Assembly: GCA_964454015.1 (NCBI GenBank)
Contig: CAYVQF010000041.1
Span: 1-25,991, forward strand
Direction of reading: 5' to 3'
DNA length: 25,991 nt
From: an uncultured Myxococcales bacterium
GTDB taxonomy: Bacteria > Myxococcota_A > Bradymonadia > UBA4248
Part shown: positions 1-25,991 of the stretch, one piece after another
Position numbering within the stretch: the stretch's first letter is position 1
Layout: each line of letters starts with the position of its first letter
Notes under the pieces: generated by a model
What the model was told of the DNA's origin: nothing
Seen by the model: the letters and a program-made list of their open reading frames with translations, nothing else
Databases searched by the model: none
Made by a program: the position numbers and the translations under genes

Positions 1-5
1 CTTGG

Positions 6-35
6 AAACCCAAGAACAACGGGGTTTTTTATTTT
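6..35 (+). terminator. Possible intrinsic terminator: short AAACCC/GGGTTT hairpin with 9-nt loop followed by TTTTTTATTTT run
   Basis: Read directly: the sequence ggAAACCCaagaacaacGGGGTTTTTTATTTT. The stem is short and AT-containing, which is atypical for this GC-rich genome. It may terminate a + strand gene lying upstream of the window. Confidence 0.25.
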
Positions 36-49
36 CTTGACCGTGGATC

Positions 50-400
50 AGGGGGCGGGGGTGCCGAAGAAAGTTGAAAATATCAAGTACTTCTAAATCA
101 ACGGAATTTCGGCATTGGAGTTTCTTTTTTTCCTGTCAGACAATTTACGACTTGCCTAGGCAGGGCTATTGCCTTAGACTCGACTTCATTGACCTGAACA
201 TCGATGCAGAGAACTTCCACATTTTGCATCGCAGGTTGATTTCGGGAGCCCATGCCGGCCCGCCCCCAGATCCCACCTAAACACTCTCGTAGTCTGTTTC
301 CCGTCACCGTATCCTTCAGTTTTAAAGTGTACATCCTTCCAAGCACCGGCATTGGTCCTCCCTAACCTACGCATCCTGATGGCCACCCTCGCGCGCTGCA
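50..400. other. Anomalously AT-rich, hairpin-dense non-coding segment (candidate structured ncRNA or foreign DNA remnant)
   Basis: GC content is visibly far below the window average. Several local inverted repeats are present: tgccgaa...ttcggca, gttga...tcaac, gatgca...tgcatc, ggca...tgcc. The segment is bounded by complementary G/C tracts, GGGGGCGGG at about 51-59 and CCCGCCCCC at about 262-270. The only ORFs here are short, begin with TTG, use AT-rich codons unlike the rest of the window, and have no SD sequence. Confidence 0.3.
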
Positions 401-449
401 CCCATTGTGTAAGCCCGGGGGTGGACGTCTAAACTCTGAACCGCTCCCC

Positions 450-785
450 ATGTTGACGCGCGCCGACCTCCAAGCCATTGGTCAGCATTTGGGCGCCGTG
501 ACGGCGCAGACCTACAAGCTCGAAGTGCGCGCGTGCACGCCACAGGCCACCTTGTGCCAGTGGCAGAACATCACCCGGGTGGGCTACGTCTTGGCCCTTG
601 ATGCCTTGGATTATCGGACCTTTCACCTCTGCCTGGGGCGCGTCCGCGGCACGGGCACAGCGGCGCCAGAGGTCGAAACCCTGTGCGATGTGGTCCTGGA
701 CAAGGCGGCCATGGCGCGCCTCGTGGGCGAACCGCGGCGCCTGGTGCGCATCCTCTTGGGCCAAGAGCGGGCGCCACAGCCTTGA
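450..785 (+). CDS. Hypothetical protein (111 aa)
   Basis: ORF-track frame 405..785. The ATG is at residue 16. Codon usage is strongly C/G-ending like the confirmed genes. No recognisable motif and no good SD sequence. Confidence 0.45.
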   Translation: MLTRADLQAIGQHLGAVTAQTYKLEVRACTPQATLCQWQNITRVGYVLALDALDYRTFHLCLGRVRGTGTAAPEVETLCDVVLDKAAMARLVGEPRRLVRILLGQERAPQP

Positions 786-833: not shown

Positions 834-2723
834 TCAGGTGAAGCGCTCGCGCAGCACCTCGTGGATACCTTTGCGCATCTCGAACCAGAAGGACAGGGCT
901 GCCTCGTCCTTGTCGCGTTTGAAGGCGTCAATCCAATCCAACAGTGCGGGATCGTTGTTGCCGTCCACCTCGTGCATCCGCACGAGGGAGGTCTCGATGA
1001 GGGTGATGTTGCGGTCGCTCTCCCAGTAGACCGCCGCGTTGCGGCTGTTGATGCGACACGAGGTGGCGAAGGCGTTCGCGACCATCTCCGGCCCGACGCC
1101 GAAGAGGGAGTGGATGATGTCGGGCACCATGTCCTCGGCCCACAAGCGATGGAAACGGCAGAAGCCGGCGTTGTCCAAGAGGATCTCTTTCATCATCCGC
1201 TCAGCGTTGCGATGACCCAGCTCTCGCGGGGGGAAGAAATCGTTGCCGTAGTACATGTAGTACTTGCCCATGATGGGCATGGGGGCCAGCACGCCAGGCG
1301 TCCAATACTGGTTGGGGACCATCCAACCTTTGCGAGCGTTGGCGTTGAAGACAAAGCTGTCCATGATCGCCTTGCCCCGGGTGCGCGCCAGCTCGCGGGC
1401 CAGCTTGCGGGCGCCTTCCCGCAGATCCAAGAGCTTATCGTGGGCGATGATGCGGTCAAGCAGCTCAACGCCGAGCTCAGCGTTGTGCATGGAGTCGGTC
1501 GTGACGGCGAAGTCCACCGGTGAGAAGACGGGCCGGCGGCTCACGCCAAGCTCTGCGGGGCTGAGAGAGCCATTGTCGAGGCACTCCATGATCCAAGACA
1601 GGACGCCGCCGACAGAGATGGCATCGAAGCCGAGGGTGTCGGCGTGATGGTTGAGCAGCTCTGCGGCGCGCTGGTCGAAGATACCCGTCAGTGGGCCCAT
1701 GGTCTGGTAGGGCTCGTAGTCCTTTTTGAAGGTGCCATGCATCTTCTTGCACACGGCGGCGCAAGGCTCGCCGCAGTTGCGCATGGCCTCCCCTTTGGGG
1801 ACGGCGTGCAGGTCTTCGTTGAACTGGCGCAGGTAATGGTCAGACACCAGGCGTTGCCACATCCCGCTGCGCGCCTCCTCATCCATGAGCAGGGAGCGGT
1901 AGTTGAAAGCCAAGAGGCGACCCCCCATCTTGGCGTAGTTCACGCCGAAGGTGCCCCCCGTGTTGAGGGCTGGGTCGAGGCGATACTTGGTGGTCGCCTC
2001 CAGATCTTTGGCGGCCATTTTCTTGTTGTAGCGCGTCTCGAACCACTCGTTGGCGACGCTGCGATCGCGAAAATCTTCGTCGACGAAGGTGCCGCCGTAA
2101 ATCACCCCGACGATCCCGTGCTGCTGGAACATCTTCGTGCCGAAGCCACCCCGACCCGCCCAGGTGTCCACGTAGGTCGCGCTCTTGTTGGTCACCGGCA
2201 CGGACATGACGGCCCCGAAATCAGTCGCCGCCGCCGCAGGCCCCGTCGCCAAGACGCGCGGGTCCGTCAGATAGCGATCGCCCAAGTTCTCCAACGCCCA
2301 ATCGGTCACGGCGTAGACACCGCCCCGGCCCGAACGCCACAAGGCTTGGGGGTCCACTGGGTGCAGCTCCACTTCGATTTCTTCGCCGTGGACGCGGTTG
2401 AGATAGAGGATGGAGGGCCGGGCGGCGCAGTTGCGAATGGACAGCATGTTGATGCCCAGGTTGTCGAAGACCAAGCCAGCGCCGCCCATGGAGGAGATGA
2501 AAAAGTTGCCCCAGCAGGGAGAGAAGCCCGTGAAGAAGAGGCGGTTGGAACCCGGGAAAATGGAGCCACACAACAAGCCCGTCCCGATGTTCAGGCTGTT
2601 GTAGCGTCCTGCCAAGTGCAAACCCAAATCAATGGGACCAAAAAAGTGACCCACCTGATGGCGCTCGATGCGATAGAAGCCAGAGCTAGCGTCGACATGA
2701 AGAACTTTGAGTCGCATATCCAT
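834..2723 (-). CDS. Aldehyde:ferredoxin oxidoreductase (tungsten/molybdopterin AOR) family protein
   Basis: 629 aa, a typical AOR length. Blocks resembling P. furiosus AOR: SMGGAGLVFDNLG...YLNRVHGEEIEVE (N-domain), MGPLTGIFDQRAAELLNHHADTLGFDAISVGGVLSWIMEC (domain 2/3 core), and a Cys cluster NCGEPCAAVC. There is a long spurious antisense ORF on the + strand. Confidence 0.65.
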   Translation of the reverse strand: MDMRLKVLHVDASSGFYRIERHQVGHFFGPIDLGLHLAGRYNSLNIGTGLLCGSIFPGSNRLFFTGFSPCWGNFFISSMGGAGLVFDNLGINMLSIRNCAARPSILYLNRVHGEEIEVELHPVDPQALWRSGRGGVYAVTDWALENLGDRYLTDPRVLATGPAAAATDFGAVMSVPVTNKSATYVDTWAGRGGFGTKMFQQHGIVGVIYGGTFVDEDFRDRSVANEWFETRYNKKMAAKDLEATTKYRLDPALNTGGTFGVNYAKMGGRLLAFNYRSLLMDEEARSGMWQRLVSDHYLRQFNEDLHAVPKGEAMRNCGEPCAAVCKKMHGTFKKDYEPYQTMGPLTGIFDQRAAELLNHHADTLGFDAISVGGVLSWIMECLDNGSLSPAELGVSRRPVFSPVDFAVTTDSMHNAELGVELLDRIIAHDKLLDLREGARKLARELARTRGKAIMDSFVFNANARKGWMVPNQYWTPGVLAPMPIMGKYYMYYGNDFFPPRELGHRNAERMMKEILLDNAGFCRFHRLWAEDMVPDIIHSLFGVGPEMVANAFATSCRINSRNAAVYWESDRNITLIETSLVRMHEVDGNNDPALLDWIDAFKRDKDEAALSFWFEMRKGIHEVLRERFT

Positions 2724-5532: not shown

Positions 5533-6459
5533 TCAGCCAATGGCGGCGTAAGAGGTGTTGTCGATGCGGAAGCGCAGCCACTTGGCCATGAACCACGGGG
5601 CGTAGATCCCGACGGTGATGAGGGTCAAGAGGTAGCCCACCAAGAACAACACGAAGAGCTGCCCACCCGTGCCGCCAAAGTTCCCGGCGAGGGTGCGCCC
5701 GGCCACGTGGACCCGGGTGTTGTTGACGAAGAACTGGGTCAATTTCACCGTGAACCACGGCATGTAGATGCCGAAGGTGATGAGGGTCAAGAGGTAGCCC
5801 ACCAAGAAGGTCACGAAGAGGCTGCCACCCGTGCCGACGAAGCTCAACTTGCCGATGGGCTGGTTATTCTCGAGGATCGCCATGTGGTCTTTGATGTAGC
5901 GCTGAATCTTGCACATGAACCACGGCATGTAGATGCCGATGGTGATGAGGGTCAAGAGGTAGCCCACCAGGAAGGTCACGAAGAGCTTGCCCCCCGTGCC
6001 ACCGAAGTGCAGCTTGTACTCCGTGCCATCCTGAGCCCGCGCGCTCGAATGGTCCGCCAAATAAGCGACGAGGTTGCGCATGAACCACGCGCCGTAGATC
6101 CCCAAGGTGAGCAGGGTCAGGAGGTAACCCACCAGGAAGAGCACGAAGAGCTTGCCCCCCGAGCCGACGAAGACCGGCACCAGCGTCCCGCGACGGGTGC
6201 CGGCGATGGTGCTGTTTTCAAAAATGTAACGGGTCATGCGCACCATGAACCACGGCATATAGATGCCGAAGGTGATCAAGGTCAGCAGGTAACCGATGAG
6301 AAAGTTGACGAAGAGACCGCCACCGGTGCCGTGAAACTTGAGCTCCACCTTGCCGCCGCCAGCGCCCATGTGGGGGATGGCACCCATGGCCTGGGTGGGC
6401 GCGTACTCGAGCGCCGGATCCTGCAGATAGGGGTCCTGTCCCCCTGCGATATAGCTCAT
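5533..6459 (-). CDS. Polytopic membrane protein made of five tandem ~55-aa repeats (DUF898/YjgN-like, tentative)
   Basis: Five copies of G(T/S)GGxLFVxFLVGYLLTL(I/L)TxGIYxPWFxxK with variable hydrophilic linkers. GGGAGA SD upstream of the ATG at 6459. The GIYxPW repeat is recalled from memory as a feature of the YjgN family. Confidence 0.75.
   Translation of the reverse strand: MSYIAGGQDPYLQDPALEYAPTQAMGAIPHMGAGGGKVELKFHGTGGGLFVNFLIGYLLTLITFGIYMPWFMVRMTRYIFENSTIAGTRRGTLVPVFVGSGGKLFVLFLVGYLLTLLTLGIYGAWFMRNLVAYLADHSSARAQDGTEYKLHFGGTGGKLFVTFLVGYLLTLITIGIYMPWFMCKIQRYIKDHMAILENNQPIGKLSFVGTGGSLFVTFLVGYLLTLITFGIYMPWFTVKLTQFFVNNTRVHVAGRTLAGNFGGTGGQLFVLFLVGYLLTLITVGIYAPWFMAKWLRFRIDNTSYAAIG
5585..6360. 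repeat. Five tandem ~160-167-bp direct repeats inside the CDS (intragenic duplication)
   Basis: Near-identical cores catgaaccacggcatgtagatgccgaaggtgatgagggtcaagaggtagcccaccaagaag... recur starting near 5591, 5751, 5911, 6080 and 6245. Confidence 0.8.
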
Positions 6460-15418: not shown

Positions 15419-18400
15419 GGCAGCTCCCGGACGCAGCGAAATCCCACACGCGGCAGGCGCGCGCAACCCAGCTCCCCCGACGGCGCTGGCGCCATCATCG
15501 CCGCCTGCCACCAGAACGGGGCGTCATCGCTCGCGCCGCCCATGATCCCAAAGCCGCCGCTGCAGTGCTGGCGCAAGCCCGGCTCACAGCGCACCCACTC
15601 CCCCACTGAGGCGGCCAAATCGAAAATCCCCTCGGGGGTCCGGTTCCACGCCACACTGGCAACCCCACGCTGCCCGCGCAGCGCCTCCTCCCGCGACTCA
15701 CTCAACTCACCGGCGAAGGCATAGTTGCGCCCCTCCAACCCCCGGGCCAAAGCCTCAAAGTCCCGCTCCGTCGGCAAGCGCATCCCCAAACTGGCACAAA
15801 AAGCCTCGGCCTCCAGCGCCCCCACCCCGGTCAAGGGCGCGCCATCCTCGGCACAGAGCGCCACCTGCCCCACGCACGCCGTCGCCGGCGCCTGGCCCGA
15901 CGCGAGCCACCGCCACAAGCCACACGTCACCTCAGTGCTCATCACCTCTAGCCGCGGCCGCTGCCAAGTCTCCCGCGCCAACACCGCCACCCCCGGACGC
16001 GCAAAATGGTGCAGGTCGCGATGAACCCGGCGCAGCCACTCTTGTTGCCGCTCGCTCAGGCCCAGCTCCACTTCGCCCGTCTCGACGCGCAACAGGGGCA
16101 CCTTGTCGGCGATCTCTCTGGGATCCACGTAAGGTAGTTGCCAACGCCCTTCAGCGTAACGCCCTTGACTCAGGGCGTGCGCCTCACCGTCCAAGCCGCG
16201 GCGCAGCACCCACAGTCGTACGGCCACCGCCGCAGCCTCCTCCCGCGCAGGCGGGAGCACGGGACCGGCAGCGCCGAGCACGCGCAGGGACTCACCCCGC
16301 TGCAGGCGCTGCGCCACATCGTCCAGCAGCATGGGCGCGGCGATGACCTCAGCGCCACTGCCGAGGCGCGCCAGCGCCTGCTGCCAGCCTTCCTCGCCCG
16401 CCGCGGGAACGGCCAGGATCAACCCCAGGCCGAGGCGCACCGTCGCGTCATAGACCGCAGCGCTGCGCTTGCTCAACGCCAGCTCGCCAAAGTCGGCGCG
16501 CACCGTCTCGGCCAAGGCCGCAAAGGCCGGCCCCTCGCCGCCCTCTCGCCCCACGATCTGCACCCGGTCCAGCAGGTCGCCCTGGCGCATCAGATCGAAG
16601 AGCGCCCGGGTGTGTGCCCAGTCCAGGGTGAGGTAGCGCGGCCCGCCCGCGGCAAAGGCCGCCTCGATGAAGCCAAGCACCTCTGCGCTCTCCTCTTCAC
16701 CAAGCAGAAGGAGCAAGTCCGCACCGGCGGCGGCCACCCGCTGCGCCATCGCGCGCCGCGCCTCTTCTTTGCCGCCATAGCGCTCGATCTGGGTCTGCAC
16801 TTGGCTCCCAGCCAGGGCGGGCAGCAACTCGGCGAGGAGGCGCTCGCCGCGCTCCCCATCGGGCACCACCACTGCCACCTGGCGCTGTTCTTGAAGTTGC
16901 ACAAAAGCCGCCACGGCGCGCAGCGTGTCCAAGGCATCGCCGCCCGCATAATGCAGGGACGTGTCGCCGCCCACCCCAAGCCCTGGCCCCGGGGCCGCCA
17001 GCCGCAACGGCCCCTCGGCCACGGCGCGCGCCACCAGAGTAGCGCGGCTCGAGGCCAGGGGCAGCACCAGGGCGTCGACCCCCACGTGGTTCACCAAGTG
17101 GGCGGCCGCCCGCGAGCTGCGTTGCCCATCACCACCGTCGTCACAGGAGATGAGCACCAGGGGCGGCGTCAAAGCCGCGCTGTTCAGCCCGCGCACGGCC
17201 AAGCGCGCCACCAGCATGGCCTGTCGCACCTCGCCGTTGGTGCCGTTGTCGATGTGGCCGATGAAGCGGGCCTGATCCACGCCGACGGCGCCTTCGACCA
17301 CGTGGCAGTCTTCAGACTGCCAGGACACACAGGCGCCCTCACGGCACAAGGTCTCACCGGGGCACTCACTGTGGCGGCGACAGGAGGGCGCCCCTTCTGG
17401 GCCCGCGCTGGCTTCGGTCGTTTGCGGGCGCGGTGTGGCGGTCTTCTCGTCACTCAGGAGGCGCAGGCCCACGGCGATGCCCAGAATCCCCAGGGCAAAG
17501 AGGGCCAGGAGCCAGATCCAGGTGCGCCGGGCCGCGCCGCTGTCGTCCGCGCCGGCCGCAGGTGCCGCAAGGGGAGCCGCCCCCGCAGGCGCACGCCCCG
17601 GCGCAGGTGGATCCAAAGAGGGGCGTTCGCCGCGGCGCCAGTCGTCGAGATCGGCCATCATGGTCTCGGCATTGGCGTAGCGCGCGCCGAGGTCCTTGGC
17701 GACGGCACAGCTCAGGATGGCGCGCAGCCCGGGATCGGTGATTTCGGCGGGGATGGCGATGGGGTCGTCGTCGACGTGGCGCAGGGCCACCTCGAAGTTG
17801 CTGTCGCCTTGGATGGCCACGCGGCCGCTCAGGGCCTCGATGAAGACCAGGCCCCAGGAGTAGAGGTCCGACTGGGGGGTCATGGGGCGCTGGCGGAGCT
17901 GTTCCGGCGAGATGTACTGGGGTGTGCCGCGTACTTCTTGCTTGGAGGTCAGGCTGACGTAGCTCTTGTCGCGGGCTTCGACCAGGATGCCGGCGATGCC
18001 GAAATCGAGGACCATGGCGTTGCGGCAGCGGCCCCCGGGGGTGAGCATGATGTTCTGCGGTTTGAGATCGCGGTGGATGATGCCTTGGCGGTGGGCATAG
18101 GCCAGGGCGTCGGCCACTTGGCTCATGAGGTGCACCGCTTCCTCGACGCCGAGCTTGCCCTCACGGCGGATGACATCGTGGAGGGTGTGGCCCTCGATGA
18201 AGTCCAGGACCAGGAAGAGTTCTTTGTCGCCCATGGTCCCGGCGTCGATGAGGCGGACGATGTTGGGATGCTTCAGGCGGGAGATGAGCTTCATCTCGCG
18301 GTTGAAGCGTTTGACCTCGCGCCACACCTCTTCCTTGCGCACGCTCTCCGTGAGGAGAAACTTGACCGCCACGGTTTGGCCCGTGGAGATCTGGGTGGCC

Positions 18401-18492
18401 CTATAGACGACTCCAAAACCGCCTTCGCCGATCTGCTCGTCGAGTCGAAAGCGGTCGTCGATGACCTCACCCTTGCGCGCGCGTCCAGCCAT
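15415..18492 (-). CDS. Receptor-type Ser/Thr protein kinase: kinase domain, single TM, PBP1-like (Leu/Ile/Val-binding-type) ectodomain, C-terminal FGE-sulfatase domain
   Basis: Kinase motifs GEGGFGVVY, VAVK, HRDLKPQNIML, DFG, SPEQ. TM WIWLLALFALGILGIAVGLRLL encoded at about 17462-17527. Cys-rich segment, then a periplasmic-binding-protein-like region. FGE-type C-terminus (VGEWVRCEP..., RVGFRCVRE). ATG at 18492 chosen over the track's TTG at 18591. Confidence 0.85.
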   Translation of the reverse strand: MAGRARKGEVIDDRFRLDEQIGEGGFGVVYRATQISTGQTVAVKFLLTESVRKEEVWREVKRFNREMKLISRLKHPNIVRLIDAGTMGDKELFLVLDFIEGHTLHDVIRREGKLGVEEAVHLMSQVADALAYAHRQGIIHRDLKPQNIMLTPGGRCRNAMVLDFGIAGILVEARDKSYVSLTSKQEVRGTPQYISPEQLRQRPMTPQSDLYSWGLVFIEALSGRVAIQGDSNFEVALRHVDDDPIAIPAEITDPGLRAILSCAVAKDLGARYANAETMMADLDDWRRGERPSLDPPAPGRAPAGAAPLAAPAAGADDSGAARRTWIWLLALFALGILGIAVGLRLLSDEKTATPRPQTTEASAGPEGAPSCRRHSECPGETLCREGACVSWQSEDCHVVEGAVGVDQARFIGHIDNGTNGEVRQAMLVARLAVRGLNSAALTPPLVLISCDDGGDGQRSSRAAAHLVNHVGVDALVLPLASSRATLVARAVAEGPLRLAAPGPGLGVGGDTSLHYAGGDALDTLRAVAAFVQLQEQRQVAVVVPDGERGERLLAELLPALAGSQVQTQIERYGGKEEARRAMAQRVAAAGADLLLLLGEEESAEVLGFIEAAFAAGGPRYLTLDWAHTRALFDLMRQGDLLDRVQIVGREGGEGPAFAALAETVRADFGELALSKRSAAVYDATVRLGLGLILAVPAAGEEGWQQALARLGSGAEVIAAPMLLDDVAQRLQRGESLRVLGAAGPVLPPAREEAAAVAVRLWVLRRGLDGEAHALSQGRYAEGRWQLPYVDPREIADKVPLLRVETGEVELGLSERQQEWLRRVHRDLHHFARPGVAVLARETWQRPRLEVMSTEVTCGLWRWLASGQAPATACVGQVALCAEDGAPLTGVGALEAEAFCASLGMRLPTERDFEALARGLEGRNYAFAGELSESREEALRGQRGVASVAWNRTPEGIFDLAASVGEWVRCEPGLRQHCSGGFGIMGGASDDAPFWWQAAMMAPAPSGELGCARLPRVGFRCVRELP

Positions 18493-18629
18493 CTCACCAC
18501 CTTGCGCCAAGTGCCCAGCGCGGCGCCTGATCTGCGCCCAGGGCCGCCGCGATCCAAGGATGGCACGCCGCCCGCGTTTTGTGCAAGCCAAGGCGCAGCG
18601 TGGGGTGATCCGCGCGTTGACATCGGGCC

Positions 18630-25431: not shown

Positions 25432-25991
25432 TCAGCGCGTGCGCCCCCGTTGGAGGCCCTTGACCCGCTTGGGCGCACAGTCCTGGCCAGGAGGACAAGC
25501 GGCCTCGTCCTCGTCGTCTGCTTGGTCAGGATCCTCACTTTCTTCACCCTCTTGTGGGGCATCCTGACCTTTGGTCTGCCCTGGGCGCTTGATCTTACTG
25601 CCACGCTCGCGCGCCGGCGCCGGGTCAGCGGCCTTCTCGTTGCGCTCCCGTTCCAGGCGCTCCCGCTCGGCCTGCTCGTTGCGCTCCCGTTCTTTGCGCT
25701 CGCGTTCGGCCTGGGCTGCCCGTTCATGCTCCTGACGATCCCGCGCAGCCTTCTCGTTGCGCTCGCGCTCCTGGCGTTCCTTCTCGGCCTTCTCGTTGCG
25801 CTCCCGTTCTTTGCGCTCGCGTTCGGCCTGGCTTGCCCGTTCATGCTCCTGACGATCCCGCTCGGCCTTCTCGTTGCGCTCGCGCTCCTGGCGTTCCCGC
25901 TCGGCCTTCTCGTTGCGCTCCCGTTCTTTGCGCTCACGTTCGGCCTGGCTTGCCCGTTCATGCTCCTGACGATCCCGCTCGGCCTTCTCGT
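25432..25991 (-). CDS. E/R/K-rich tandem-repeat protein, C-terminal part (5' end lies beyond the window); a different frame from ORF-track 25416..25961
   Basis: Minus-strand frame with codon first bases at positions divisible by 3 is open from the window edge to the TGA at 25434-25432. It encodes ...RDRQEHERASQAERERKERERNEKAEKERQERERNEKAA... repeats, then ...EGEESEDPDQADDEDEAACPPGQDCAPKRVKGLQRGRTR*. Arg is encoded by CGN in this frame. The track's frame needs rare AGG/AGA codons and yields low-complexity SATRRP text. The frame contains no ATG/GTG/TTG, which would explain why the ORF finder did not list it. Confidence 0.55.
   Translation of the reverse strand, partial: EKAERDRQEHERASQAERERKERERNEKAERERQERERNEKAERDRQEHERASQAERERKERERNEKAEKERQERERNEKAARDRQEHERAAQAERERKERERNEQAERERLERERNEKAADPAPARERGSKIKRPGQTKGQDAPQEGEESEDPDQADDEDEAACPPGQDCAPKRVKGLQRGRTR
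25615..25991. repeat. 120-bp tandem direct repeats (at least 3 full units, continuing past window end)
   Basis: The unit ...cgttcatgctcctgacgatcccgc(t/g)cggccttctcgttgcgctcgcgctcctggcgttcc... recurs at about 25726, 25846 and 25966 with few substitutions. Confidence 0.8.

What the first reader, a model, noticed from the sequence alone, without database searches (positions are those of the whole stretch)
50..400. AT-rich, hairpin-dense non-coding island in a 70% GC genome
About 330 bp with much lower GC than anything else in the window. It has at least four local stem-loops and flanking complementary GGGGGCGGG/CCCGCCCCC tracts that could close a ~210-nt domain. A weak terminator-like hairpin with a T-run precedes it at 6-35. 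The only ORFs are TTG-initiated with foreign codon usage. Candidates are a structured ncRNA, a leader or riboswitch-like element for the downstream small gene (450..785), or a remnant of horizontally acquired DNA such as an integration site scar. I could not match it by eye to tmRNA, RNase P RNA, SRP RNA or 6S RNA consensus.
Basis: seen in the sequence. Interest (0 to 1): 0.5.

Follow-up and report, generated by a model that had tools for sequence, protein, structure and literature searches.

The report
Insertion-sequence edge beside foreign orphan gene
The AT-rich patch is real, but it is not a structured RNA: its left edge is the tip of a multi-copy jumping gene, and the rest is about 300 bp of foreign-looking DNA with one orphan 84-codon reading frame, which is an ordinary kind of genome junction.

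Summary
The low-GC observation holds. Positions 71-370 are 47% GC, against 65.8% for the window and 59-77% for nine other intergenic gaps. The "island" is a composite, not one element.

- **Window 1-52 (or 1-53)** is the terminal stretch of a multicopy insertion sequence. The same end, CCTGATCCACGGTCAAG..., abuts 10 other, unrelated flanks in nine more contigs, all from the Wageningen anaerobic-digester metagenome series. Contigs that reach it break there.
- **The "terminator hairpin" at 6-35** is therefore inside the IS. The left GGGGGCGGG tract straddles the IS/flank junction.
It has a host-like GGGAGGA ribosome-binding site but foreign codon usage (GC3 0.49 against 0.80-0.89).
- **No relatives.** The ORF, the neighbouring 111-aa gene and the DNA itself match nothing but themselves in any database searched.
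- **No RNA evidence.** Rfam gives nothing, and folding energy for 53-352 is at chance (z -0.45 and +0.13).

Best reading: an IS-bounded scrap of acquired DNA with an orphan small gene.

One oddity is unexplained. A 15-nt inverted repeat (45-59 / 259-273, 14 of 15 paired; 0 of 400 shuffles reach it) spans the IS junction. Interest is low.

The parts
1..52 (-). Terminal 52 nt of a multicopy insertion sequence (the end upstream of its ORF, so 'IRL'). The body of the IS lies left of the window. The end may be at 53, because 10 of 11 junctions have a C before CCTGATCC on the IS strand.
   Evidence: A 35-mer from window 1-35 occurs in 9 further metagenome contigs, always at a contig end. These give 10 further junctions, each with a different flank immediately outside CCTGATCC. 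Contigs L001/L097 continue 85 nt left of window position 1 to ATG TCA CAA GGC... = MSQGVLGFQYK.
36..52 (-). 17-nt terminal sequence CCTGATCCACGGTCAAG, shared by all IS copies. It resembles IS1380-family (ISEcp1) terminal repeats.
   Evidence: Gapped alignment to ISEcp1 IRL CCTAGATTCTACGTCAG (read from plasmid pC15-1a) gives P about 0.005 against shuffles.
6..35 (+). It is an IS-internal sequence, not part of the flank.
   Evidence: It lies inside the shared IS end. The terminator scan does not call it. The fold of 1-52 has z -0.26. The stem is not kept in the variant IS copy L008:1-169.
53..97 (.). 45-nt spacer between the IS end and the ORF84 stop codon, GC 0.44. It contains GGGCGGGG (53-60) and the 3' arm of the hairpin 61-69/107-115.
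98..352 (-). ORF84: ATG at 352-350, TGA at 100-98, 84 codons, GC 0.49, GC3 0.49. It is an orphan with no homologue anywhere.
   Evidence: Gene callers of ENA, JGI and Logan assemblies call it, but the NCBI record does not. Only itself is found among 5.8e9 and 1.84e9 proteins. Pfam, NCBIfam, PHROGs, PADLOC and PDB give nothing. An ATG ORF of 84 codons or more with a Shine-Dalgarno site occurs in 0.3% of shuffles.
356..362 (-). Shine-Dalgarno-like GGGAGGA, 3 nt before the ORF84 ATG.
   Evidence: Most native genes of the window carry the same kind of motif 4-8 nt from the ATG.
45..59 (+). Left arm of the 15-nt inverted repeat GGATCAGGGGGCGGG. Positions 45-52 are the IS terminus and 53-59 are flank.
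259..273 (+). Right arm CCCGCCCCCAGATCC. It lies inside ORF84, where it codes G-I-W-G-R-A.
   Evidence: The motif is unique in about 90 kb of related DNA.
353..449 (.). 97-nt spacer (GC 0.63) between the divergent ORF84 and 111-aa gene. It holds a plus-strand hairpin at 378-429.
   Evidence: z -2.35 on the plus strand, +1.08 on the minus strand. No sigma-70 consensus is found.
450..785 (+). The 111-aa gene. It has native codon usage (GC3 0.82) but is also an orphan. This is the 'downstream small gene'.

Best explanation
The island is a junction, not an element.

**SHOWN.** Window 1-52/53 is the outermost end of an insertion sequence present at 11 or more different sites in the Wageningen anaerobic-digester metagenome series. 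Its putative transposase ORF starts about 85 nt left of the window and reads away from it.

**SHOWN.** The DNA to the right of that end (53 to about 370) is compositionally unlike anything else in the window, coding or intergenic. It has no detectable relative as DNA or as protein.

**INFERRED.** This roughly 300-bp patch is a scrap of horizontally acquired DNA. Its main content is a small protein-coding gene, or a recently dead one, on the minus strand (ATG 352 to TGA 98). It would be translated from a host-type GGGAGGA ribosome-binding site and transcribed leftward from the 353-449 spacer, divergently from the native 111-aa gene. The IS landed 45 nt past its stop codon, so whatever originally followed it (a terminator, or more of an acquired island) now lies beyond the IS.

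**INFERRED.** The low GC reflects origin, not function. The local hairpins are what a sequence of this composition gives by chance. The long-range G/C pairing that looked like a domain closure is half made of IS terminus, so it cannot be an ancestral RNA helix.
For: **IS end**
- Searches give 10 further junctions with identical sequence inside CCTGATCC and unrelated sequence outside. One search agrees.
- Of the ten contigs read across this locus, the three that reach the IS stop 123-137 nt inside it (about k-1), one stops 26 nt inside it, and the other six stop short of it.
- A 93%-identical variant copy exists.

**Foreign composition**
- GC is 0.47-0.49, against 0.59-0.77 for nine other intergenic gaps.
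- ORF84 GC3 is 0.49, against 0.80-0.89 for six native genes. The log-likelihood against the native codon table is negative in every frame.

**Coding reading**
- ATG plus GGGAGGA, as in native genes.
- An ORF this long with a Shine-Dalgarno site occurs in 0.3% of dinucleotide shuffles.
- Codon position 1 is purine-rich and T-poor, and position 2 is A/T-rich, as in real genes.
- Three independent pipelines call it.

**Against an RNA element**
- No Rfam hit, no tRNA or tmRNA, and fold z-scores of -0.45 and +0.13.

**Chromosomal, non-island context to the right**
- The remaining genes are ordinary enzymes and the region contains no recombinase.
Against: - ORF84 has no homologue at all, so there is no evolutionary evidence that it is translated.
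- The AlphaFold single-sequence model is poor, pLDDT 48.
- The NCBI annotation does not call it.
- Without the Shine-Dalgarno requirement, an 84-codon ATG ORF appears in 6.9% of shuffles.
- All recovered copies of the locus are 100% identical, so selection cannot be measured.
- The donor of the supposed foreign DNA is unknown, and the far side of the IS was never seen.
- The 15-nt inverted repeat spanning the IS junction is far beyond chance, and this account does not explain it.
Confidence: 0.6

Rival explanations
1. The patch is a native AT-rich regulatory spacer, such as a divergent promoter region or a nucleoid-protein binding region, for the 111-aa gene. ORF84 is a chance ORF.
For: - The patch sits upstream of a native-codon gene.
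- An ATG ORF of 84 codons or more arises in 6.9% of shuffles.
- The NCBI annotation omits ORF84.
- A weak TTGCCT-17-TAGACT promoter-like pair can be read at 152-180 on the plus strand (read by eye).
Against: - No other intergenic gap in this genome is below 0.59 GC, so AT-richness is not how this organism builds promoters.
- The promoter scan finds no sigma-70 site in 1-1000.
- The AT-rich core (71-170, 37% GC) is 280-380 nt from the 111-aa start.
- The host-type Shine-Dalgarno site before the ATG makes a chance ORF unlikely (0.3%).
Confidence: 0.17
2. The patch is passenger DNA that travelled with the IS as a one-off extended transposition unit, as ISEcp1-type elements capture neighbouring DNA. 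This copy would be the founder.
For: - The patch and the visible 138 nt of the IS have the same low GC (0.48-0.49) and are directly adjacent.
- The IS terminus resembles IS1380/ISEcp1 ends.
- An end-like 8-mer CCAGATCC lies at 266-273.
Against: - The patch lies on the IRL (upstream) side, whereas, as far as I recall, ISEcp1 capture happens past IRR.
- The 266-273 motif is in the wrong orientation to serve as an alternative IRL, and is not significantly end-like beyond 8 nt (P 0.07-0.09).
- None of the 10 other junctions carries any of this DNA.
- The flank has no similarity to the IS end.
Confidence: 0.08
3. The patch is an invertible (phase-variable) DNA segment. The 15-nt inverted repeats 45-59 and 259-273 would be recombination sites, and flipping 60-258 would swap the C-terminal part of ORF84.
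For: - The repeat is significant (0 of 400 shuffles). It flanks a 199-bp AT-rich segment, which is the size and shape of known invertons.
- In silico inversion keeps the frame open from the same ATG, giving 107 aa instead of 84.
Against: - All 8 contigs that extend left of 259, from several samples and three assembly pipelines, have the same orientation.
- No protein sharing the ORF84 N-terminus with another C-terminus exists in the protein collection.
- No recombinase gene is found in the 26-kb window.
- Eight or nine of the 15 left-arm bases are IS terminus, so the site would have had to arise by the insertion.
- The open flipped frame only requires that ORF84 and its 45-nt 3' spacer, read in the ORF84 frame, lack TTA, CTA and TCA triplets.
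Confidence: 0.04
4. The patch is a structured non-coding RNA, or a leader or riboswitch for the 450..785 gene.
For: Three local hairpins have z between -2.3 and -3.2, two of them stronger on the plus strand. The 378-429 hairpin lies 20 nt before the 111-aa ATG.
Against: - No Rfam match even at E<=10.
- Region-wide folding is at chance.
- The hairpins were picked after the fact from 40 scanned windows.
- The closing helix is half IS-derived.
- No homologues exist, so there is no covariation to test.
Confidence: 0.04

Closest known systems
IS1380-family insertion sequences (e.g. ISEcp1)
   Same: - The terminus begins with CC and aligns with the ISEcp1 ends: CCTGATCCACGGTCAAG against IRL CCTAGATTCTACGTCAG and IRR CCTAAATTCCACGTGTG.
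- A non-coding leader of about 140-190 nt separates the end from the transposase ATG: 138 nt here and 186 nt in ISEcp1.
- The element is multicopy with unrelated flanks.
- The N-terminus GFQYKAASKNTNMTG loosely recalls ISEcp1 DFKAKNLTSNAG.
   Different: - Only 11-21 codons of the ORF and only one end were seen.
- There is no hit to NCBIfam or Pfam, no tblastn or blastn hit in 72,556 plasmids, and no candidate in the protein collection.
- The right end, the target-site duplication and the DDE domain are unobserved, so family membership is a lead, not a result.
Orphan (ORFan) genes in small horizontally acquired, low-GC islets next to IS elements
   Same: A short gene has atypical GC and codon usage, has no homologues, sits beside a mobile element and is embedded in otherwise native chromosome.
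   Different: There is no tRNA, integrase or direct repeats to define an island. Only one edge is visible, and expression is untested.
Invertible DNA switches (E. coli fimS, Bacteroides invertible promoters, Hin/Gin-type C-terminal swapping)
   Same: Short inverted repeats bracket an AT-rich segment of about 200 bp next to a gene start, and both orientations keep an open frame.
   Different: No recombinase gene is present and only one orientation is observed. One arm is partly an IS terminus. The alternative coding parts overlap fully in antisense instead of lying head to head.
Rho-independent terminator (for the 6-35 hairpin)
   Same: A short stem is followed by TTTTTTATTTT on the plus strand.
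   Different: The stem has only three G-C pairs (the scan's minimum) and its loop of about 10 nt exceeds the scan's 3-8 nt limit, so it fails the scan criteria. Its folding is no better than shuffles. It lies inside the IS, pointing outward and antisense to the transposase, and is not kept in the variant copy.

Membership tests
Insertion sequence (generic) | The same terminal sequence is found at several genomic sites with unrelated flanking DNA | tested here: met
   There are 11 junctions, the window plus 10 others. They are identical inside CCTGATCC and unrelated outside it.
Insertion sequence (generic) | Terminal inverted repeats at both ends and a target-site duplication | not testable with these tools
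   No contig holds the other end, because every assembly breaks inside the IS. All-against-all comparison of contig ends gave left ends only.
Insertion sequence (generic) | Encodes a transposase | tested here: inconclusive
   Only the first 11-21 codons are visible (MSQGVLGFQYKAASKNTNMTG). There is no family hit and no candidate in the protein collection.
IS1380 family | Termini starting CC with an ISEcp1-like repeat sequence | tested here: met
   The gapped alignment to ISEcp1 IRL scores 7.0 against 2.9 +/- 1.2 for shuffles, P about 0.005. ISEcp1 ends were read from pC15-1a. The similarity needs four gaps, so this is weak.
IS1380 family | IS1380-type DDE transposase (NCBIfam or Pfam model hit) | tested here: inconclusive
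   The 21-aa fragment gives no hit at E<=10. The full protein could not be obtained.
Any Rfam RNA family (riboswitch, leader, sRNA, tmRNA, RNase P, SRP, 6S) | Covariance-model score at or above the family gathering threshold | tested here: not met
   There are 0 hits in the whole window at gathering threshold. Over 1-900 at E<=10 the only hit is CRISPR-DR35 at 17 bits against a gathering score of 35. ARAGORN finds no tRNA or tmRNA.
Structured ncRNA (unclassified) | Folding energy better than composition-matched shuffles, and conserved or covarying pairs | tested here: not met
   z is -0.45 and +0.13 for 53-352. Covariation cannot be tested because no homologous sequence exists.
Invertible DNA switch | Inverted repeats flanking the segment | tested here: met
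   The arms are 45-59 and 259-273, with 14 of 15 paired, and 0 of 400 shuffles reach that length.
Invertible DNA switch | Both orientations present in the population | tested here: not met
   All 8 assembled contigs that extend left of 259 are in one orientation. The flipped-state protein is absent from the 15-billion-protein collection. Raw reads were not available, so a minority state is not excluded.
Invertible DNA switch | Site-specific recombinase encoded nearby | tested here: not met
   No recombinase or integrase domain is found in any gene or large ORF of the 26-kb window. The left side beyond the IS is unseen.
MITE or other small repeated element | Multiple copies in the genome | tested here: not met
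   ORF84 occurs only at this locus, always next to the 111-aa gene. The arm motif is unique in about 90 kb. There is no hit in plasmids, phages or viral contigs.
Genomic island or integration scar | Deviant composition together with a tRNA or integrase and flanking direct repeats | tested here: inconclusive
   Composition is deviant. There is no tRNA, no integrase and no meaningful direct repeats. One side is hidden behind the IS.

The most novel reading that the evidence does not exclude
The 15-nt inverted repeat that spans the IS/flank junction (45-59 / 259-273) may not be an accident. It could mark a DNA-inversion switch, or a templated repair event, that formed after or together with the IS insertion. 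Flipping the 199-bp AT-rich segment would exchange the C-terminal two-thirds of an orphan small protein (84 aa to 107 aa, from the same ATG and ribosome-binding site). This would be an inverton whose recombination site is partly built from a transposon end.
Probability: 0.04. Interest if true: 0.5.

Novelty: new member of a known kind. Interest (0 to 1): 0.15.

Why it matters
It matters little beyond annotation.

- **For annotation.** The result stops a composite junction (IS tip, orphan ORF and spacer) from being catalogued as a candidate structured RNA or riboswitch. It also shows that the apparent "domain-closing" helix is half transposon end.
- **What it records.** An undescribed, actively multicopy insertion sequence, probably IS1380-like, in the anaerobic-digester community. 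It also records a compositionally foreign 84-codon ORFan with a host-type ribosome-binding site.
- **What might deserve more work.** Only the junction-spanning inverted repeat, which is statistically real and unexplained. A read-level check for inversion would be cheap.

Tried and rejected
**Searches that found nothing**
- Rfam at gathering threshold and at E<=10 gave nothing. tRNA/tmRNA search gave none.
- The promoter/terminator scan of 1-1000 gave no sites.
- Homologues of ORF84: only itself in the 5.8e9-sequence word-indexed search. In the full phmmer search against 1.84e9 representatives, the only other hits were two repeat-protein matches at E about 5e-4. I regard these as spurious, because their scores are summed over 3-8 repeats.
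- Homologues of the 111-aa protein: only itself.
- Pfam, NCBIfam, PHROGs, PADLOC and PDB on ORF84, the 111-aa protein and all small ORFs of 53-543 gave nothing.
- Synteny through the neighbouring AOR gene: 80 loci at 60-68% identity from many phyla. None has the 111-aa gene, ORF84 or the low-GC DNA.
- blastn of 53-449 against plasmids and phages, and an exact 28-mer against viral contigs, gave nothing.

**Attempts to recover the transposase or IS family**
- The 21-aa query was too short.
- A 40-aa query built from observed in-frame upstream codons found no candidate.
- tblastn and blastn against plasmids found nothing. Exact and degenerate DNA patterns in viral contigs found nothing.
- Contig-end clustering found left ends only.

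**Ideas tested and rejected**
- The flank is a decayed copy of the IS end: rejected, because the local alignment is at shuffle level.
- 60-258 is an eroded long palindrome: rejected, P 0.27.
- 266-285 is an alternative IS end: not significant beyond 8 nt, and in the wrong orientation.
- The junction-spanning repeat is a general feature of this IS: rejected, because none of the 10 other junctions has one.
- The arm motif is a genomic repeat: rejected.

**Uninformative**
- AlphaFold on ORF84 gave pLDDT 48.
- The flipped-allele protein look-up found it absent.
- The codon-permutation test for the flipped frame was degenerate. The antisense in-phase frame depends only on TTA/CTA/TCA codons, so it gave no P value.

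Full report

Partly. The window averages 65.8% GC, not 70%.

The lowest 300-nt window is 71-370 at 47%, and the next lowest anywhere is 50.7%. The lowest 100 nt, 71-170, is 37%.

That test fails to refute. Nine other intergenic gaps in the first 12.7 kb are 59-77% GC. In 51 kb of further contigs carrying the same mobile element, no 300-nt window is at or below 47%. So the compositional anomaly is genuine.

The rest of the description does not hold up as written.
- The region is not free of ATG ORFs. An 84-codon ATG ORF runs from 352 to 98 on the minus strand, with GGGAGGA 3 nt before the ATG.
- "Hairpin-dense" is not supported. The 300 nt from 53 to 352 fold no better than dinucleotide shuffles on either strand (z -0.45 and +0.13).
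- A sliding scan picks out three local hairpins with z between -2.3 and -3.2 after the fact.
- The impressive z of -4.4 for 50-270 is due to one long-range pairing.

**2. What lies at the left edge?**

Ten public contigs were read across this locus. They come from ENA, JGI and Logan assemblies of one sample series, are 100% identical to the window, and none continues past the window's left edge.
- The three contigs that reach furthest stop 123-137 nt past position 52, roughly one k-mer. That is the signature of a repeat.
- A 35-mer from window 1-35 then found nine more contigs. These give ten more junctions, always at a contig end. Each has the same sequence up to CCTGATCC and completely different DNA beyond it.
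- Window 1-52 is therefore the outer end of an insertion sequence present at 11 or more sites. The end may be at 53, because 10 of 11 junctions have a C before CCTGATCC.
- About 85 nt left of the window an ORF begins, MSQGVLGFQYK(AASKNTNMTG), reading away from the window.

The family of the IS could not be established.
- The terminus aligns with the ends of ISEcp1, which I read from plasmid pC15-1a. The alignment has P about 0.005 but needs gaps. The CC terminus and the leader length also fit IS1380-type elements.
- The transposase could not be retrieved, and the other end was never seen.
- The family is therefore only a lead.

Two consequences follow for the finding.
- The "terminator-like hairpin at 6-35" is IS-internal. 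It is not called by the scan, is not thermodynamically special, and is not conserved in a 93%-identical variant copy.
- The left GGGGGCGGG tract straddles the IS/flank boundary.

**3. What is the AT-rich DNA itself (53 to about 370)?**

It has no relatives.
- ORF84 matches only itself among 5.8 billion clustered proteins and among 1.84 billion representatives by exhaustive phmmer. The two marginal hits there are repeat proteins.
- No domain, phage, defence or PDB library matches it.
- The DNA matches nothing in plasmids, phages or viral contigs.
- Eighty loci around relatives of the neighbouring aldehyde:ferredoxin oxidoreductase-family gene (60-68% identity, many phyla) contain neither ORF84, nor the 111-aa gene, nor this DNA.
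- The patch is single-copy and always sits next to the 111-aa gene.

Arguments for coding:
- The ATG is preceded by the same GGAGG-type motif, at about the same distance, that most native genes of this window use.
- An ATG ORF this long with such a motif arises in 0.3% of shuffles, against 6.9% without the motif.
- Codon positions 1 and 2 have the usual purine-rich/T-poor and A/T-rich make-up.
- Three pipelines call it.

Arguments against coding, or neutral:
- GC3 is 0.49, against 0.80-0.89 for native genes, and the native codon model disfavours every frame.
- The NCBI record does not annotate it.
- The AlphaFold single-sequence model is poor.
- There is no variation on which to measure selection.

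The neighbouring 111-aa gene is also an orphan but has fully native codon usage. The boundary of the foreign composition therefore falls near 353-370.

**4. Most likely account**

I give this account about 0.6.
- **Shown:** this is an IS junction.
- **Shown:** the adjacent 300 bp is compositionally foreign and lineage-specific.
- **Inferred:** it is a scrap of acquired DNA whose content is one small gene, or a recently dead one. That gene would be read leftward from the 353-449 spacer, and the IS landed 45 nt past its stop.

The remaining window is ordinary chromosome: phosphoglucomutase, MurB, an acyl-CoA ligase, a Ser/Thr kinase, a vault-like protein and others. It has no recombinase or integrase and no tRNA.

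The samples come from an anaerobic digester in Wageningen (PMC10159854).

**5. The one thing that is not ordinary**

The inverted repeat is 15 nt long with 14 of 15 paired. Its arms are 45-59 (GGATCAGGGGGCGGG) and 259-273 (CCCGCCCCCAGATCC).
- No repeat of this length appeared in 400 shuffles. A junction-straddling repeat of 12 nt or more appeared in only 0.25%.
- The left arm is 8-9 nt of IS terminus plus 6-7 nt of flank. The right arm lies inside ORF84.
- It is not a property of the IS, since none of the 10 other junctions has one.
- It is not a dispersed motif, not the remnant of a longer palindrome, not a decayed IS copy, and not significantly IS-end-like beyond 8 nt.

- Inversion in silico would keep the frame open, giving 107 aa from the same ATG. 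This only requires the absence of three codons, so it is weak evidence.
- All eight contigs that extend left of 259 share one orientation.
- No protein with the ORF84 N-terminus and another C-terminus exists in the collection.
- No recombinase is in view.

I leave the repeat as unexplained. The candidates are insertion next to an end-like sequence, template switching at a quasi-palindrome after insertion, a rare inversion switch (about 4%), or coincidence.

**6. Comparison with the known, and verdict**

As an object this is an IS/flank junction with an ORFan, both thoroughly known kinds of thing. The particular IS and the particular ORF are undescribed, hence "new member of a known kind".

Its "horizontally acquired remnant" alternative is the nearest to what the evidence shows.

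Interest is low, at 0.15. The cheap follow-up is a read-level orientation test of 60-258, plus long reads across the IS.

Noticed in passing
window 1-52; L008:1-169; L008-L016 contig ends: An undescribed multicopy insertion sequence has 11 or more distinct junctions in the Wageningen digester metagenomes. At least two sequence variants exist, about 93% identical over the first 139-146 nt. Its first 138 nt are 49% GC. Several insertions lie just after stop codons or terminators of neighbouring genes.
   Followed up: partly
window 69 (L103 and L105 position 2): Two contigs from two different samples and pipelines both start at window 68 and carry T instead of G at 69. This could be a second allele whose sequence diverges left of about 68, perhaps an IS-free or differently rearranged version. 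Only 2 nt of it are visible.
   Followed up: no
window 25629-25991: The right end of the window runs into a 117-nt tandem repeat (3.1 copies, 93% matches) with a 39-nt sub-period, inside a minus-strand ORF. Both ends of the window therefore sit at assembly-breaking repeats.
   Followed up: partly
window 12170-15094 (+): A 951-974-aa protein has Major Vault Protein shoulder and Vault_3 repeat domains (E 1e-19 and 4e-9). This is a bacterial vault-like protein, which is uncommon.
   Followed up: no
window 834-2723 (-): A gene of the aldehyde:ferredoxin oxidoreductase family has relatives at only 60-68% identity. These are spread over Spirochaetota, Myxococcota, Bacteroidota, Desulfobacterota, Campylobacterota, Planctomycetota and others. 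No close species-level genome exists in the GTDB representative set, which suggests a widely exchanged gene and an unrepresented host.
   Followed up: partly
window 5587-6172: A 165-nt tandem repeat (about 2.6 copies, 77-78% matches) lies inside the DUF898 gene (5533-6459, minus strand). This matches the three DUF898 hits reported for the product.
   Followed up: no
window 15415-18591 (-): A 1058-aa protein combines a Ser/Thr protein kinase domain, a periplasmic-binding-protein domain and an FGE-sulfatase-like domain.
   Followed up: no
L012:4320-4340 and L013:10880-10900: Two IS junctions have similar flanks just outside the IS end (CAGCCCGGGTTATGAC and CAGCCGGGTTTAGC). They may be related or paralogous target sites, or a slightly longer shared end in a sub-lineage of the IS.
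   Followed up: no
window 74-280 (+) versus 98-352 (-): The antisense in-phase frame of ORF84 is open across the whole segment between the inverted repeats, because ORF84 uses no TTA, CTA or TCA codons there. That is why a 68-codon TTG ORF appears on the plus strand.
   Followed up: yes
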